Sequence record: MN850616.1
DNA length: 40,308 nucleotides
Direction: 5' to 3' (one strand)
Source: Escherichia phage buks
The notes beneath the pieces were generated by a model. The model was not told the origin of the DNA and searched no databases. It saw only the letters and a list, made by a program, of their open reading frames with translations. Position numbers and translations under genes: made by a program. Position 1 is the first letter of the stretch. Each line of letters begins with the position of its first letter. Shown in pieces: positions 21,653 to 25,842 of this stretch.

Positions 21653-22924
21653 TTAAAGTGCGAAAGTAACCGGGATATGGGATACAGGTTTAACCAACGG
21701 CATTTCGTAGGCGATAGGGTATCCTGTTGCGTCGTTCTGGTGGTCGTTGCCGCTTGTTTTATCCGGCACACCGTTTTTATCGTAAGCCTGTTGCTCCAGG
21801 CAACGCGCGGTAACCGGGCAAGCCTGCTCGTTGACCATTAATCTACCAGACTCCAGCGCTTTATTCACCGATGCTACACGGTCTTTAACTGCAGGGTTAA
21901 CTGATTTCGCACGTATCTCGAAACCTGCGTTCTGTAATTGGGCAATATCTGACGTACTGGCATCAGTCGATTTACGGTTCTTGCCGCTGGCGTCCGGGTA
22001 CATGACGATGTGGTGGCCGTGTCGTTTCCACCGCTCGGTAATCTCCCTGACCACATCTGGGGTGTCGAACATATCCACCAGCTCGGCTACCGCGTGCCAG
22101 ACATACTCACGCTGAACGTATACGGTGCTAGCCATATGCCCGACGTTGAAGTCCTGACCGATATACAGCGTTTCTCCAGGTTGTATAGTCTCTCGACTGC
22201 TGTTCTTGCGTCGGTCGTAAGCATAATACACGCTGCCGGATGTCAGGTTGACAAATTCACCATCGATGTAGGCATCGATTAACTGGCCCGGATACGTATC
22301 CCGCAGCGACTGCACATAATCTTCCGGTAGAAAGGGATTGGATGTTGTCGAGGCCTGAATCATTTCATAGCCTGGTTTCTTTTTTACAGCCCATCTGTCG
22401 TGCACAAAACGGAAGCCTTCCGGGGTCGTAAAGACCGAGACTGTATTGGCAGGTTTCGGGGTAATCGGCCGATATGTACGCGGCAACTGACGGTTACGGG
22501 CGATAACTTTGTTCCAGGCGTGCTCGGCGTGGTCTTTATTTAACGTGTCCAACTCGTCTATTTTTGCGCGGAACGATTCGTAGCCAACAATTCGCGCGGG
22601 GTTATCCAATGTACGAAGGACAAAATCCCCGAATTGCCCGGACGATGTATAGATTATGTTGTCAGATTTATTGTACTTGTAGCGAATACCCCAATCGGAT
22701 AGCTTCTCTTCCATACGAGGGGCGAGGATAAGACGCACAAGGTCATACGTCGGTTCGTACATGGCAATAAGGGAATCGCTACCGCCCTCCATGCTGTCGA
22801 GTAGGGCGGAGTTGCACATGACCTCTGATTTACCTGTGCCGAAGCCAGCGACGAAGGCCGGGAATTTACAATGCAGATTAAGGAACGCGCCTTGCGGTTC
22901 CGTAGCCGTTATATCAACGTTCAC
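21653..22924 (-). CDS. Terminase large subunit
   Basis: 423 aa; N-terminal ATPase P-loop-like FVAGFGTGKSEV; GTG start with AAGGTGG RBS; follows small terminase gene with 11-nt overlap. Confidence 0.85.
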   Translation of the reverse strand: MNVDITATEPQGAFLNLHCKFPAFVAGFGTGKSEVMCNSALLDSMEGGSDSLIAMYEPTYDLVRLILAPRMEEKLSDWGIRYKYNKSDNIIYTSSGQFGDFVLRTLDNPARIVGYESFRAKIDELDTLNKDHAEHAWNKVIARNRQLPRTYRPITPKPANTVSVFTTPEGFRFVHDRWAVKKKPGYEMIQASTTSNPFLPEDYVQSLRDTYPGQLIDAYIDGEFVNLTSGSVYYAYDRRKNSSRETIQPGETLYIGQDFNVGHMASTVYVQREYVWHAVAELVDMFDTPDVVREITERWKRHGHHIVMYPDASGKNRKSTDASTSDIAQLQNAGFEIRAKSVNPAVKDRVASVNKALESGRLMVNEQACPVTARCLEQQAYDKNGVPDKTSGNDHQNDATGYPIAYEMPLVKPVSHIPVTFAL

Positions 22925-23420
22925 CGGACACCACCTTAATAGTTACTTCGCTAATTGGTTCGTCGCGCGTTTCTTCCACAACAGTTTTATTAAGCCCAAG
23001 TTTTGCTGCGGCAAACGTAGCAGATATCCCGGCGGCACCGGTCTCCGTGAAATACGCCTCTTCCAGGGCTTGTGCCGTCTCATATGCTTCGGCGAATGCG
23101 GGAACCTCTCGGAGCCATAGCTTGATAATCGGGATGGTTACACCGATGTGTAATGCGAAGCGGGCCAGCGACGGCGGTTTGTCCTGGATAAGCGGGCGTT
23201 CGTCGCCTTTAGACGTGGGTACGAGTTCCCATGACGTGCGGTCGAAGAACCGGATTAATTCGTCGCAATAGTCCGGGTCCCATAGTTCGGCGGAATGCCG
23301 GGATGACTGGTACAGACTTTGTTTACCACGCGGACGTTTACGGCGACGGTTTGCGTTAACCGCTTCTTCGTGCGCGGCAGCCACTACTTCGGCGTCAGGC
23401 TGTTTTAATTTGAGTTTCAT
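22914..23420 (-). CDS. Terminase small subunit
   Basis: Basic N-terminus plus putative HTH region; directly upstream of TerL. Start set to ATG 23418-23420 (MKLKLKQ...) with AGAGAGGA RBS; the track start at 23459 has a weaker RBS. Confidence 0.55.
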   Translation of the reverse strand: MKLKLKQPDAEVVAAAHEEAVNANRRRKRPRGKQSLYQSSRHSAELWDPDYCDELIRFFDRTSWELVPTSKGDERPLIQDKPPSLARFALHIGVTIPIIKLWLREVPAFAEAYETAQALEEAYFTETGAAGISATFAAAKLGLNKTVVEETRDEPISEVTIKVVSGER

Positions 23421-23553
23421 GCAATCCTCTCTTAAATGCGTATGACCATCATAGCGCATCAGACACCCCCTGAGCGTCTATTAAGGATTGTACAGGGGAA
23501 TGAAGGCCTGTGTACAGAAAAGCCCACAGAAGCGGGCTTGGTGGTAGGCTATT

Positions 23554-23784
23554 TTACAGTTCTACAGATGATAAATGGTTGGCCGCGGACTTAACCGCGT
23601 CTTTAAGGCTATCGTACGCGGAAGTAAAAGACATATGTACTCCTTTCGAGACAACTATAGCGCCGCCGTTAAAGTACGCTTTTGCTCTCCAGCCACCATT
23701 TACCTTATCAATAAGGATGTAGTGACTACCTTCTTCCGTTACCGTAACCGTGTTTTCGTCTATTACTTCAAATTTAGTGCCCAT
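23554..23784 (-). CDS. Hypothetical protein
   Basis: 76 aa; AGAGAGAGA RBS; followed by a terminator-like hairpin before terS. Confidence 0.45.
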   Translation of the reverse strand: MGTKFEVIDENTVTVTEEGSHYILIDKVNGGWRAKAYFNGGAIVVSKGVHMSFTSAYDSLKDAVKSAANHLSSVEL

Positions 23785-23799
23785 GTTTTCTCTCTCTCT

Positions 23800-24099
23800 T
23801 TAATCTTGCTCGTCTTTATATACCCACCACTTACCAACACCTTCCCATCGCCACCCGCGACTATGGATGGCACAGAATCTACGGCCAAATACTGTTTCCC
23901 CGTACCACATGACAAATAGCTTCACCGCGGTAGCAGCACCAATTTTATGCGCATTCAACCGGCGATACGCTAACGACATCCGGGTAAGACTAACGGCTTC
24001 AACAAACGGCCAAATAAACAAAATCCACACCAGGTATATGACCACAGCAAGGAGCAAAGTTGTAAACCCGATACCCATTAGGACTAGAAAATCATTCAT
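23800..24099 (-). CDS. Hypothetical membrane protein
   Basis: 99 aa with two hydrophobic segments and Trp-rich C-terminus; ATGA overlap with upstream gene; GGAGGGG RBS. Confidence 0.45.
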   Translation of the reverse strand: MNDFLVLMGIGFTTLLLAVVIYLVWILFIWPFVEAVSLTRMSLAYRRLNAHKIGAATAVKLFVMWYGETVFGRRFCAIHSRGWRWEGVGKWWVYKDEQD

Positions 24100-24323
24100 A
24101 ACCCCTCCAGCTTCATGCGGTCGTTGCGAGATACTCCGCGTTTCGTGTAGATGACCGGTGACGTTTTCGTATGGGTCATCAGTCGGTTGTTATAAATAAC
24201 ATGTTGCTCGCATTTTGTGTCATGGCGGTACTTGGATAATGTCATCTCATTAAGTCCAGTCTCCCGGCACGTATCCGCTAATGTGCCGTGAGCCTCTATT
24301 AGTTTCGGGATACTGGTAATCAT
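24096..24323 (-). CDS. Hypothetical protein (possible small DNA-binding protein)
   Basis: 75 aa; ATGA overlaps at both ends within the coupled micro-gene chain. Confidence 0.4.
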   Translation of the reverse strand: MITSIPKLIEAHGTLADTCRETGLNEMTLSKYRHDTKCEQHVIYNNRLMTHTKTSPVIYTKRGVSRNDRMKLEGL

Positions 24324-24469
24324 TCTTGTTCGCTCTCCTTCTCAAGTCGTTCCAGCAGCATCTTGAATGCTTCTAACTGGAATTCTTCGTTCATTGACAA
24401 ATCTAACTTATGTACCGACTCCAGATACATAATGTACTGGCGCAACGTTTCTTTGCGTACTCGTTTCAT
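24320..24469 (-). CDS. Hypothetical small protein (49 aa)
   Basis: Hand-found ORF missing from the track: [49 protein letters not shown]; its ATG overlaps the upstream stop (ATGA) and its stop overlaps the next ATG (ATGA). Confidence 0.4.
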   Translation of the reverse strand: MKRVRKETLRQYIMYLESVHKLDLSMNEEFQLEAFKMLLERLEKESEQE

Positions 24470-24699
24470 TTATTCACACTCCATCCGCATTTAAAACACT
24501 GCCAGCATTTACCTTTATCGTTGCTAACAAAATCATGCTCACACTTATTCAGATTGTATCGGTTAATAAGCTCCCGGCGATGCTCATTAAGGTAGTCTAA
24601 CGCGGCCTGGTGCGCCTTAATTTGCGCATCTACAGCTTCAATCTTAAAACGGCCGTTGGCGGACTCTACCATCATCTTTTCGTATTCGTTATTGGTCAT
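24466..24699 (-). CDS. Cys-rich zinc-finger-like protein
   Basis: 77 aa; C-terminal CEHDF...CWQCFKCGW cysteine cluster; ATGA overlaps on both sides. Confidence 0.45.
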
Positions 24700-24851
24700 T
24701 TCTTCTTACCCCACATGCGATTGAGATACTTGTTCTTGTCCGGCCCGGGGAAACTATTGCGTTTTAACAGTTCCTCGCGTGTCGGGAATGGCGTATTTCC
24801 TACCTTACCGCCCACCTTAAACGTTACCGCTACTTGCCCGTTGTCGCTCAT
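24696..24851 (-). CDS. Hypothetical small protein (51 aa)
   Basis: Hand-found ORF missing from the track: [51 protein letters not shown]; GGAGG RBS 9 nt upstream; ATGA overlaps on both sides. Confidence 0.4.
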
Positions 24852-25006
24852 TCCTGCACCTCCCATCCGCATACGTCTACTCCATCATAATATTGTTTAG
24901 ACCGTTCCAGTTCGGCGGCGGCTTCGGCCTTTTCTTCGCTGAGATAAACACCAAGAACGTAAGTGTCCTCGTAGTGGTACCATCCGGATACGATATATAC
25001 TTTCAT
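24848..25006 (-). CDS. Hypothetical small protein (52 aa)
   Basis: Hand-found ORF missing from the track: [52 protein letters not shown]; ATGA overlap with 25003-25188 stop and with the next ATG. Confidence 0.4.
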
Positions 25007-25188
25007 TTTTGTTCTCCTGCATAAGCTGCTTTCAGTGTCTGCATCGCGGCGAACCAGAACGCATCCGCTGGGATTCGTGTGCTCAGGTTATTAACGGCAA
25101 TGCGTGCCATCAATTGCGCGTCTTTAAATGCTTCGGTGTCCCGTAGCGGTTTGCAATAGTAAAAAACTTTATCGCTTTGTAAGTTCAT
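25003..25188 (-). CDS. Hypothetical protein (61 aa)
   Basis: First gene downstream of promoter 25222-25250; GGAG RBS; ATG 25186-25188. Confidence 0.45.
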   Translation of the reverse strand: MNLQSDKVFYYCKPLRDTEAFKDAQLMARIAVNNLSTRIPADAFWFAAMQTLKAAYAGEQK

Positions 25189-25221
25189 CTTCTCTACTCC
25201 GTTCTCGTTGTCGATGAGCTA

Positions 25222-25842
<621 letters not shown>

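What the first reader, a model, noticed from the sequence alone, without database searches (positions are those of the whole stretch)
23800..25188. Chain of seven translationally coupled micro-genes with ATGA start/stop overlaps, three of them invisible to the ORF track
From 25188 down to 23800 every gene start overlaps the preceding stop as ATGA: 25003-25188, 24848-25006, 24696-24851, 24466-24699, 24320-24469, 24096-24323, 23800-24099. Three encode 49-52 aa proteins missed by the 60-aa cutoff. Such strict coupling suggests stoichiometric co-expression of a set of small proteins, which are candidates for host-takeover or anti-defence functions; one has a Cys cluster and one is a membrane protein.
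Basis: seen in the sequence. Interest (0 to 1): 0.45.

Follow-up and report, generated by a model that had tools for sequence, protein, structure and literature searches.

The report
Nin-like operon of overlapping small phage genes
The seven tiny back-to-back genes are real, conserved and already annotated in Salmonella phage blauehaus, and they form an ordinary phage accessory-gene operon of the kind long known from the nin region of phage lambda, not a new kind of system.

Summary
On the minus strand, 25188-23800, seven ORFs are joined by six consecutive ATGA stop/start overlaps at the stated coordinates. The window is Salmonella phage blauehaus (Jerseyvirus). All seven ORFs are already RefSeq CDS (gp08-gp14). 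"Invisible to the ORF track" reflects only the 60-aa cutoff.

All seven are real genes: pN/pS is 0.10-0.34 against 11-19 orthologs. Four-base overlaps make up 14 of 53 same-strand junctions genome-wide. A run of six is locally enriched (permutation p about 0.005).

The chain, plus gp15, appears to be a discrete unit. A conserved sigma-70 promoter and invariant leader precede it, and a conserved terminator follows it. Between these bookends, 28 related cassettes carry 5-13 small genes from about 31 families, still mostly overlap-joined. Only the gp08, gp10 (DUF2737) and gp11/gp13 families are always present.

gp13 is a distant homolog of lambda NinH. The N-terminus of gp11 and gp13 form a single 118-aa protein in some relatives. 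gp14 has an N-terminal transmembrane helix.

Variable content argues against a seven-protein stoichiometric complex. An anti-defence or host-takeover role is possible but untested. The closest known arrangement is the lambda ninR "chain of interlinked genes".

The parts
25344..25372 (-). P1, a sigma-70-like promoter (TTGACA-17-GATACT) immediately after the lysozyme stop codon
   Evidence: Scores 10/12 in the consensus scan. Both hexamers are invariant across 11 Jerseyvirus and Kagunavirus relatives (alignment A1).
25272..25337 (-). Candidate short transcript: a CU-rich stretch (CUCCU, CCCUCU, CUCCUUU) followed by an intrinsic terminator hairpin (25306-25280) and a T7-T10 run
   Evidence: Terminator scan. 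The fold shows a 10-bp stem with an unpaired 5' part. RNAalifold finds one compensatory pair in Kagunavirus. Rfam gives only sub-threshold hits. Expression is inferred, not shown.
25222..25250 (-). P2, the sigma-70-like promoter of the micro-gene operon (TTGACT-17-TATATT)
   Evidence: Scores 10/12. It is one of only three intergenic, correctly oriented matches of at least 10/12 in the whole phage genome. It is invariant in relatives.
25189..25221 (-). Leader with a Shine-Dalgarno tract (…CATCGACAACGAGAACGGAGTAGAGAAG) ahead of the first gene
   Evidence: Nearly invariant across both genera. SD duplex energy -6.1 kcal/mol.
25003..25188 (-). gp08, 61 aa, the first gene; family found in all 28 cassettes; function unknown (phrog_2180)
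   Evidence: pN/pS 0.10. Family present in 28/28 cassettes. Homologs also occur in some other siphoviruses.
24848..25006 (-). gp09, 52 aa, DUF7336; optional cargo
   Evidence: Pfam PF24024 at 66.8 bits, above the cutoff of 25. pN/pS 0.34. Present in 8/28 cassettes.
24696..24851 (-). gp10, 51 aa, DUF2737; family found in all 28 cassettes
   Evidence: Pfam PF10930 at 41.4 bits, above the cutoff of 25. pN/pS 0.13. Homologs lie in the early-left operon of HK97 next to abc2, and in Sf101, ES18 and Stx phages.
24466..24699 (-). gp11, 77 aa: an N-terminal long helix (residues 1-46, the 'NinZ-like' module) plus a C-terminal CxH…CxxCxxC cluster
   Evidence: phrog_1402, and phrog_268 positions 1-46. C-terminal variants and the fusion to gp13 in relatives (alignment A2). 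A relative (P0024) has CSH…CPDC at the same place. pN/pS 0.16.
24320..24469 (-). gp12, 49 aa, function unknown; optional cargo
   Evidence: phrog_10200. pN/pS 0.28. Present in 20/28 cassettes, and replaced by an unrelated 62-aa gene in L004.
24096..24323 (-). gp13, 75 aa, a distant NinH-family helix-turn-helix protein
   Evidence: BLASTP against lambda NinH: 33% identity over 55 aa, E 1e-8. hhalign probability 96.4%. Pfam NinH at 21 bits, below the gathering score of 29.8. All 11 family members hit NinH. pN/pS 0.13.
23800..24099 (-). gp14, 99 aa, membrane protein with an N-terminal transmembrane helix; Jerseyvirus only
   Evidence: Hydropathy. AlphaFold2 helix 2-50, with pLDDT 81-95 over the first 30 residues. 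N-terminal 40 residues nearly invariant (alignment A8). Homologs found only on contigs no longer than about 45 kb (most 41-45 kb), several named as Jerseyvirus Salmonella phages.
23554..23784 (-). gp15, 76 aa, the last gene of the unit; starts 15 nt after the gp14 stop; optional cargo
   Evidence: phrog_10134. Present in 8/28 cassettes.
23514..23539 (-). T2, terminator-like hairpin AAGCCCGC-TTCT-GTGGGCTT plus TTCTGT that closes the unit
   Evidence: Sequence and fold. Conserved whatever gene precedes it, with a compensatory GCCCTC/GAGGGC stem in Kagunavirus (alignment A7).
23487..23516 (-). P3, a promoter-like site (TGTACA-18-TACAAT) overlapping the T2 U-tract, ahead of terS (22914-23459)
   Evidence: Scores 9/12. 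Conserved in alignment A7.

Best explanation
The chain is a self-contained accessory-gene operon of a virulent Jersey-type siphovirus. It is built like the nin region of lambdoid phages.

Inferred expression. Host sigma-70 RNA polymerase starts at the conserved promoter P2 (25250-25222). It transcribes gp08 through gp15 as one mRNA and stops at the conserved terminator T2 (23539-23514).

Inferred translation. Ribosomes load at the invariant leader. At each internal junction a new ribosome can load on that gene's own Shine-Dalgarno tract. Alternatively, a ribosome terminating at the UGA of AUGA can reinitiate on the overlapping AUG. The result is roughly proportional, gap-free expression of all cargo from a single promoter.

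Shown by comparison. The overlaps also mark module boundaries. Whole genes are gained, lost or swapped in relatives, and the new junctions are again -4, -1 or -8 overlaps.

The products are individually exchangeable small proteins rather than subunits of one complex. The always-present families are gp08, gp10 (DUF2737), the gp11 helical module and gp13 (NinH-like HTH). The gp11 module and gp13 probably act together as a dimeric nucleic-acid or nucleoid-binding factor. Optional cargo includes gp09, gp12, the membrane protein gp14 and gp15. Their biochemical functions are unknown.
For: Identity and annotation: 100% match to NC_073173, and all genes are annotated.

Coding status: pN/pS is 0.10-0.34 for the seven genes, against 0.10 for lysozyme and 0.08 for terS. 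All show a third-position excess of substitutions. Opposite-strand ORFs are broken in relatives.

Overlaps: six ATGA junctions, with a permutation p of 0.005 for a run of six.

Bookends: P2, the leader and T2 are conserved between Jerseyvirus and Kagunavirus, with compensatory changes in the T2 stem. P2 is among the three best intergenic sigma-70 matches in the genome. No strong internal promoter or terminator is predicted.

Variable cargo: 28 cassettes hold 5-13 genes from about 31 families, and 115 of 214 junctions are -4. Per-gene identity to a single relative ranges from 100% to 69%. GC content is 5-8 points below the flanks.

Own ribosome-binding sites: SD duplex energies of -5.3 to -11.5 kcal/mol, and accessible initiation regions.

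NinH link.

Fusion of gp11(1-45) with gp13 at RRELI|TSIPK.

Lambda comparison: six of ten junctions from P to Q are 4-nt overlaps, and the nin genes are dispensable for plaque formation (PMC10695390).

Coupling at -4 overlaps was shown experimentally for E. coli gene pairs (PMC6728339, PMC10666635).

The NinH-type gene of a Kagunavirus is transcribed during infection and was classed as 'middle' (PMC12645636).
Against: There are no expression data for blauehaus. The promoters, terminators and the single-mRNA model are consensus predictions supported only by conservation.

The Kagunavirus RNA-seq classed the NinH gene as middle rather than early. That fits poorly with a purely constitutive host-type promoter, though its time classes are coarse.

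Coupling itself has not been tested. Accessible ribosome-binding sites mean the overlaps could have little effect on expression.

Dispensability is inferred only from presence/absence among relatives. Three families are never absent, so part of the cassette may be essential.

Only 2 of 5 NinH DNA-contact residues are kept in gp13, so DNA binding is uncertain.
Confidence: 0.7

Rival explanations
1. One reading: the seven proteins are subunits or partners of one assembly, and the ATGA chain exists to fix their stoichiometry by co-translational coupling.
For: [quoted passage not shown] The gp08, gp10, gp11 and gp13 families are present in all 28 cassettes.
Against: gp09, gp12, gp14 and gp15 are absent from 8-20 of the 28 related cassettes, and unrelated genes take their places. 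Selection strength and divergence differ sharply from gene to gene. Every gene has its own SD tract.
Confidence: 0.1
2. The cassette is an anti-defence or host-takeover island: a strongly expressed slot into which the phage lineage shuffles small inhibitors of host defence or host physiology.
For: The content is hypervariable between conserved bookends. A strong host-type promoter drives it. GC content is low. Relatives of the cargo sit in the early accessory regions of temperate phages: DUF2737 lies next to the anti-RecBCD gene abc2 in HK97, and NinH lies in the lambda nin region, where its expression impairs host growth (PMC7166090).
Against: No product matches any protein of known function. 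PADLOC, NCBIfam and PDB sequence searches are empty or sub-threshold. No anti-defence profile library was available, and there are no phenotypic data. The Kagunavirus NinH gene peaks in the 'middle' class, not the early one.
Confidence: 0.3
3. The overlaps have no regulatory role. They are by-products of genome compaction and of stop/start codon turnover in a region dense with small genes.
For: -4 is the commonest intergenic distance in prokaryotes generally (PMC10666635). It accounts for 26% of junctions across this genome. Each gene has an SD tract and an accessible initiation region.
Against: The overlap is kept at the same junctions across genera and is re-created after gene gain or loss. 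At the gp13/gp14 junction it alternates between ATGA and TGATG, which points to selection for the overlap rather than for a particular sequence. The 15-20 nt next to each junction are nearly invariant while gene interiors diverge. The run of six has p of about 0.005.
Confidence: 0.2
4. Some of the sub-60-aa ORFs are not genes but chance ORFs between real ones.
For: They are very short (49-52 aa) and two have no Pfam family.
Against: All are conserved as intact frames in 11-19 relatives, with pN/pS of 0.13-0.34 and a third-position bias. gp09 and gp10 pass Pfam thresholds. All match PHROG families at E below 1e-19.
Confidence: 0.03

Closest known systems
Lambda ninR region, the 'chain of interlinked genes' (Kroger & Hobom 1982, Gene 20:25, cited in PMC7166090 and PMC10695390)
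   Same: A co-oriented run of mostly small accessory genes joined by ATGA/GTGA overlaps. Six of ten junctions from P to Q are 4-nt overlaps. The lambda genes are dispensable for plaque formation. The region contains NinH, to which gp13 is homologous. Content is mosaic among relatives.
   Different: The lambda region lies between the replication genes and Q, and it is read from pR under N antitermination. Here the chain lies between the endolysin and terS of a virulent phage, with its own promoter and terminator. There are no ninB/orf, ninG/rap or ninI homologs. The longest run of uninterrupted 4-nt overlaps is six here, against two in lambda.
Lambda NinH, a Fis-like nucleoid-associated-protein mimic (PMC7166090)
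   Same: A small HTH protein of 68-75 aa. Profile-level homology covers the HTH region. It is encoded within a chain of overlapping small genes.
   Different: gp13 scores below the Pfam gathering threshold. It keeps only 2 of the 5 residues shown to matter for NinH DNA binding (T32 and K35 kept; N18, R30 and R34 changed; mapped onto). In some relatives it carries an N-terminal 45-residue helix donated by gp11.
Early-left (pL) accessory genes of HK97-, P22- and Sf6-type phages that contain DUF2737
   Same: gp10 belongs to DUF2737. In HK97 the homolog is a 54-aa gene that overlaps its downstream neighbour by 4 nt and lies next to abc2.
   Different: The genomic context and phage lifestyle differ, and only the C-terminal 30 residues align.
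Variable accessory-gene slots of phages: morons, hyperplastic regions, and anti-CRISPR operons with a conserved promoter and variable cargo (from general knowledge)
   Same: Conserved regulatory bookends around rapidly changing small genes of unknown function, with lower GC than the flanks.
   Different: No cargo gene here has a demonstrated or homology-inferred anti-defence function. No conserved autoregulator comparable to Aca has been identified, although the always-present HTH protein gp13 could play that part. That idea is untested.
Translationally coupled overlapping gene pairs (termination-reinitiation; PMC6728339, PMC10666635, PMC12548453)
   Same: -4 (ATGA) and -1 (TGATG) overlaps, with SD tracts inside the upstream gene.
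   Different: The cases tested experimentally were pairs, often encoding subunits of a complex. Here there are six consecutive junctions joining exchangeable genes that do not always co-occur. Coupling has not been measured.

Membership tests
nin-type chain of interlinked genes (lambdoid ninR) | A run of co-oriented small ORFs whose stop and start codons overlap (ATGA/GTGA) | tested here: met
   Six of six junctions are ATGA. In lambda, six of ten are 4-nt overlaps.
nin-type chain of interlinked genes (lambdoid ninR) | Position between the replication genes and the late antiterminator Q, transcribed from pR | tested here: not met
   The chain lies between lysozyme gp07 and terS gp16, with its own promoter P2 and terminator T2. 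No Q homolog is annotated.
nin-type chain of interlinked genes (lambdoid ninR) | Contains homologs of named nin genes | tested here: inconclusive
   gp13 is NinH-like. For gp11, the 'NinZ-like' label rests only on record labels and a weak hit to phage PS34 (E 5e-3). No ninB, ninG or ninI homologs are present.
nin-type chain of interlinked genes (lambdoid ninR) | Genes dispensable for plaque formation | not testable with these tools
   Indirect evidence only: gp09, gp12, gp14 and gp15 are absent from many viable relatives. The gp08, gp10 and gp11/gp13 families are never absent.
Phage_NinH (PF06322) | Score at or above the Pfam gathering threshold (29.8 bits) | tested here: not met
   gp13 scores 21.0 bits, E 3e-4. 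All 11 family members hit NinH, with a best E of 1.5e-7. Some Kagunavirus and LSPA1 members carry precomputed PF06322 hits.
Phage_NinH (PF06322) | Profile-level homology to lambda NinH across the HTH | tested here: met
   hhalign probability 96.4%, E 1.2e-9, 50 columns. BLASTP E 1e-8.
Phage_NinH (PF06322) | Conservation of the Fis-like DNA-contact residues (NinH N18, R30, T32, R34, K35; PMC7166090) | tested here: not met
   These residues align to gp13 T14, E26, T28, S30 and K31, so 2 of 5 are kept (alignment).
Phage_NinH (PF06322) | HTH fold resembling Fis; homodimeric DNA binding and bending | tested here: inconclusive
   The AlphaFold2 model of the fused relative has helices 58-65 and 69-74 at pLDDT 84-93. 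Foldseek hits to HTH proteins, including Fis, all have E above 1. Binding cannot be tested here.
Translationally coupled genes (termination-reinitiation) | Overlap of -4 or -1 nt between co-oriented genes | tested here: met
   The overlap is kept in relatives.
Translationally coupled genes (termination-reinitiation) | Downstream translation depends on upstream translation | not testable with these tools
   Predictions point to weak dependence at most: each gene has its own SD and an accessible initiation region.
Operon for a heteromeric complex | All members co-occur across related genomes | tested here: not met
   Only 3 of about 31 families are present in all 28 cassettes.
DUF2737 (PF10930) | Score above the gathering threshold | tested here: met
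   gp10 scores 41.4 bits against a cutoff of 25.
DUF7336 (PF24024) | Score above the gathering threshold | tested here: met
   gp09 scores 66.8 bits against a cutoff of 25.
Zinc-ribbon / zinc-knuckle motif (gp11 C-terminus) | Four conserved Cys/His ligands in a CxH…CxxC arrangement; metal binding | tested here: inconclusive
   blauehaus has C53-x-H55…C65-xx-C68-xx-C71, and relative P0024 has CSH…CPDC. Other relatives lack this tail entirely. No Pfam zinc-finger hit was found. Metal binding is not testable here.
Phage anti-defence locus | Homology to a known anti-defence protein, or a demonstrated phenotype | not tested
   No anti-defence profile library was available. PADLOC, which covers defence systems rather than anti-defence, gives only sub-threshold noise. 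PDB sequence searches were empty.

The most novel reading that the evidence does not exclude
The conserved promoter-leader and terminator bookends define a dedicated expression slot in Guernseyvirinae, into which small genes are shuffled as whole modules joined by stop/start overlaps. At least some of this cargo would be unrecognised inhibitors of host defence or host physiology. Candidates are the gp08 and DUF2737 families, the zinc-cluster variant of gp11, and the membrane protein gp14. The always-present NinH-like HTH protein, with its gp11 helix partner, would act as the slot's regulator or as a nucleoid-directed effector.
Probability: 0.25. Interest if true: 0.5.

Novelty: new member of a known kind. 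Interest (0 to 1): 0.2.

Why it matters
As described, this is a textbook feature of compact phage genomes and adds little. The genes are already annotated, and chains of overlapping small genes have been known since the lambda nin region was sequenced.

The comparative picture adds a practical handle. The unit is cleanly bounded, strongly promoted and hypervariable, and hundreds of Salmonella and E. coli phages used for biocontrol carry a version of it. That makes it a compact, well-defined place to screen for small proteins affecting the host or its defences.

The natural split, zero-gap and fused forms of gp11/gp13 are a ready-made test of whether two adjacent coupled micro-genes work as one protein.

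Tried and rejected
1. Function by sequence. Pfam, PHROGs, NCBIfam and PADLOC on all eight proteins gave only DUF7336, DUF2737, sub-threshold NinH and noise. Pfam on 20 additional cargo proteins from relatives found only DUF3850/ASCH in one of them.

2. PDB sequence searches with gp09, gp11, gp13, gp14 and the gp13 profile found nothing meaningful.

3. Structure. The AlphaFold2 model of the 118-aa fused relative (mean pLDDT 71) shows a long helix followed by an HTH. Foldseek against PDB gave no hit with E below 1. Foldseek against BFVD returned only a family member. The gp14 model is confident only for the transmembrane helix (mean pLDDT 62.5), so no fold search was run on it.

4. The 'early transcription antiterminator' label on a cassette gene of Escherichia phage 26 has no Pfam support and was disregarded.

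5. Target prediction for the upstream CU-rich RNA. Its best duplex with a phage initiation region (gp14, -24.4 kcal/mol) is no better than those of shuffled CU-rich seeds (54% of shuffles do as well). No target can be claimed.

6. Opposite-strand ORFs of 95-114 aa inside the region are interrupted or truncated in most relatives and were rejected as genes.

7. Literature. No paper mentions DUF2737 or DUF7336. No comparative paper describing this cassette was found.

8. The product names in the S4lw record ('DNA polymerase III subunit delta' for a 52-aa protein, among others) appear shifted by one gene and were ignored.

9. The large representative-protein search was not used, because family breadth would not change the verdict.
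Full report
**What the window is.** The 2-kb region matches Salmonella phage blauehaus (NC_073173 / MT074473; Guernseyvirinae, Jerseyvirus) at 100% identity. The window is the reverse complement of that record, circularly permuted. The record already annotates every ORF of the finding as a CDS, gp08 to gp14. A further small gene, gp15, follows, then terS and terL. The holins and lysozyme lie upstream.

**Checking the observation.** The minus-strand sequence and the ORF list confirm seven ORFs of 61, 52, 51, 77, 49, 75 and 99 aa at the stated coordinates.
- All six junctions read ATGA.
- In the whole annotated genome, 14 of 53 same-strand junctions are 4-nt overlaps and three more are 1-nt overlaps.
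- The overlap type is therefore common in this phage, but six in a row occurs in only 0.5% of permutations.
- The Cys cluster in gp11 (C53, H55, C65, C68, C71) is real.
- gp14 has a hydrophobic N-terminus. AlphaFold2 models this N-terminus as a helix, with pLDDT 81-95 over the first 30 residues.

**Are they genes?** I collected the homologous region from 19 Jerseyvirus and Kagunavirus genomes.
- Every one of the seven ORFs is intact wherever a homolog is present.
- Pooled pN/pS is 0.10 (gp08), 0.34 (gp09), 0.13 (gp10), 0.16 (gp11), 0.28 (gp12), 0.13 (gp13) and 0.23 (gp14). The controls are lysozyme at 0.10 and terS at 0.08.
- Substitutions concentrate at third codon positions in all seven.
- The 95-114-aa ORFs on the opposite strand carry stops or are truncated in most relatives.

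These are real protein-coding genes.

**Anatomy of the unit.** Upstream of gp08, the 185-nt spacer after the lysozyme gene is far better conserved than the flanking genes, even between genera (alignment A1). It holds, in order:
- a promoter-like site P1 (TTGACA-17-GATACT);
- a CU-rich stretch of about 35 nt;
- a strong intrinsic terminator;
- a second promoter P2 (TTGACT-17-TATATT);
- an invariant leader ending in GGAGTAGAGAAGATG.

P1 and P2 are two of only three intergenic, correctly oriented sigma-70 matches of at least 10/12 in the whole genome.

Downstream, a hairpin (AAGCCCGC-TTCT-GTGGGCTT followed by TTCTGT) sits 14 nt after the gp15 stop. It is conserved in all relatives whatever gene precedes it. 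Kagunavirus has a compensatory stem (GCCCTC/GAGGGC). Its U-tract overlaps a conserved promoter-like site ahead of terS (alignment A7). No strong internal promoter or terminator is predicted.

I therefore read gp08-gp15 as one transcription unit with conserved bookends. This rests on consensus matches and conservation, not on RNA data.

**Variable cargo.** I used the bookends to delimit the unit in GenBank and IMG/VR relatives.
- There are 28 distinct cassettes of 960-2438 nt holding 5-13 small genes. They fall into about 31 families; a few singletons are probably mis-calls by my heuristic ORF walker.
- Only the gp08 family, the gp10 family and the merged gp11/gp13 family occur in all 28.
- gp12-type genes occur in 20 cassettes, gp14 in 11, gp09 in 8 and gp15 in 8.
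- Of 214 internal junctions, 115 are -4, 16 are -1 and 19 are -8.
- When gp09 is missing, gp08 is joined directly to gp10 by a new ATGA. The gp13/gp14 junction is ATGA in some phages and TGATG in others.
- Per-gene nucleotide identity to one relative (Shelanagig) runs 93, 100, 97, 81, 89, 92 and 69% along the chain. The 15-20 nt next to each junction are nearly invariant.
- The cassette's GC content is 0.43-0.49, against 0.50-0.57 in the flanks.

This is the pattern of a mosaic accessory region in which whole genes are exchanged and only overlap-joined arrangements persist.

**Translation.** Each gene has a purine-rich SD tract inside the 3' end of its upstream neighbour, with duplex energies against the anti-SD of -5.3 to -11.5 kcal/mol. 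Predicted opening energies of the initiation regions are 2.0-9.0 kcal/mol (mean 4.5 for gp09-gp14). That is no higher than the 6.8 average for the other genes of the phage.

Experiments on native E. coli gene pairs show that -4 and -1 overlaps give tight termination-reinitiation coupling, that coupling collapses with about 20 nt of spacing, and that the SD contribution varies from gene to gene (PMC6728339, PMC10666635, PMC12548453).

The most likely picture here is mixed. De novo initiation is possible at every gene, and reinitiation at AUGA smooths expression along the chain. "Strict" coupling is not shown.

**What the proteins are.**
- **gp09** is DUF7336 and **gp10** is DUF2737. DUF2737 homologs lie in the early-left operons of HK97 (next to abc2, with a 4-nt overlap on the next gene), Sf101, ES18 and Stx phages.
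- **gp13** matches lambda NinH. BLASTP gives 33% identity over 55 aa, E 1e-8. A family profile gives hhalign probability 96.4%. All 11 family members hit Pfam NinH, but blauehaus gp13 itself scores 21 bits, under the 29.8-bit gathering threshold.
- **NinH** is a Fis-like DNA-binding and DNA-bending dimer whose expression harms host growth (PMC7166090). Of its five functionally tested contact residues, gp13 keeps only two. DNA binding by gp13 is therefore plausible but not assured.
- **gp11** has a conserved 46-residue N-terminal module followed by one of three tails. The tails are a short one (59 aa, labelled 'NinZ-like' in records), a CxH…CxxC cluster (76-77 aa, as in blauehaus), or gp13 itself.
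- **The fusion.** In demigod, Ent2 and others a single 118-aa ORF reads …RRELI|TSIPK…, joining gp11(1-45) to gp13(2-75). PHROG 268 is this fused form. In Kagunavirus the two parts are separated by up to three genes, and lambda NinH corresponds to gp13 alone. The fusion is therefore most simply a derived deletion.
- **The fused model.** AlphaFold2 models the fused protein as one long helix (3-55) running into an HTH (58-65, 69-74; mean pLDDT 71). Foldseek finds only non-significant HTH matches, Fis among them. The fusion is the one piece of evidence that two members of the chain act together.
- **gp14** has a nearly invariant transmembrane N-terminus and a variable C-terminus. It was found only on contigs of Guernseyvirinae size, several of them named Jerseyvirus phages.
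- **gp08, gp12 and gp15** have no informative matches.

**Comparison with what is known.** The closest precedent is the lambda ninR region, described in 1982 as "a chain of interlinked genes" (cited in PMC7166090 and PMC10695390).
- In the lambda record, six of the ten junctions from P to Q are 4-nt overlaps.
- The nin genes are individually dispensable for plaque formation.
- One of them, NinH, is homologous to gp13.

The blauehaus chain works like a nin region but is not one by position or regulation. It sits between the lysis genes and the terminase of a virulent phage, has its own promoter and terminator, lacks ninB, ninG and ninI, and is more tightly linked (run of six against two). It is best filed as a new member of a known kind.

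**On the interpretation.** A seven-subunit stoichiometric set is contradicted by the presence/absence pattern. A functional gp11-gp13 pair is supported by the fusion. An anti-defence or host-takeover role fits the architecture: a hypervariable, strongly promoted, low-GC unit whose relatives lie in early accessory regions of temperate phages. It has no direct support, and I could not screen against anti-defence families. The only transcriptome of a relative (Kagunavirus K1B4) shows that the NinH gene is transcribed and groups it with 'middle' genes. Its time classes are coarse (PMC12645636).

**Verdict.** The feature is ordinary and already annotated, so interest is low. The bounded, variable-cargo architecture and the split/fused gp11-gp13 pair are modest but useful additions.

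Noticed in passing
window 25272-25372 (minus strand): Promoter-like P1 is followed by a CU-rich stretch with three anti-Shine-Dalgarno-like motifs (CUCCU, CCCUCU, CUCCUUU; Kagunavirus has CACCUCCU) and a strong terminator. This could be a phage small RNA of about 65 nt, or a lambda pR'-6S-tR'-like unit. It is better conserved across genera than the flanking genes. Shelanagig annotates a 67-aa CDS across it, but the T-run length varies from 7 to 10 among relatives, which argues against coding. Rfam gives only sub-threshold hits. Target prediction against phage initiation regions was no better than with shuffled seeds.
   Followed up: partly
window 24096-24699; L009:1906-2262, L013:2648-3004: gp11 (N-terminal 45 residues) and gp13 are a single 118-aa ORF in several Jerseyvirus genomes. 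Elsewhere they are two genes with no gene, one gene or up to three genes between them. The joint is RRELI|TSIPK, where the fused form reads GGGAACTGATTACCAGT and the split form reads AAGAATGATTACCAGT. This is a natural fission/fusion series at an ATGA junction.
   Followed up: yes
window 23487-23539 (minus strand): The terminator that closes the cassette shares its U-tract with the -35 element of a conserved promoter-like site ahead of terS (TGTACA-18-TACAAT; the -10 reads TATAAT in Kagunavirus). The end of one unit and the start of the packaging and structural genes may therefore be physically coupled.
   Followed up: partly
L002 (OQ660438, phage S4lw) 1813-3645: Product names in this record look shifted by one gene and implausible for the sizes. 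Examples are 'DNA polymerase III subunit delta' for a 52-aa gp09 homolog, and 'terminase small subunit' on the large-subunit gene. This is an annotation artefact that could mislead label-based searches.
   Followed up: no
window 23763-23915 (minus strand, alternative frame); proteins P0044, P0045: Two database homologs of gp14 switch after about residue 67 into the frame of the 50-aa alternative ORF listed at 23763-23915 (…GKQYLAVDS…PSIVAGGDGK…). This may be a frameshift variant of gp14 or a sequencing error in those contigs.
   Followed up: no
L002:1813-2007, L004:1574-1768, L015:1870-2064, L017:1959-2153: Some relatives carry an extra 64-aa gene between promoter P2 and the gp08 homolog, joined by a 5-nt gap rather than an overlap. 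The first position of the cassette is therefore also an insertion point.
   Followed up: no
window 23400-25200: The cassette has GC of 0.43-0.49 against 0.50-0.57 in the lysozyme and terminase flanks. Its coding strand is strongly G-over-C skewed (GC skew about -0.18 on the plus strand).
   Followed up: partly
L030 cassette gene 8 (IMGVR_UViG_3300045988_018079) and three other cassettes: One optional cargo family is a 76-aa DUF3850/ASCH-domain protein (Pfam 66 bits). It is the only cargo with a recognisable domain, and that fold is usually RNA-binding.
   Followed up: no
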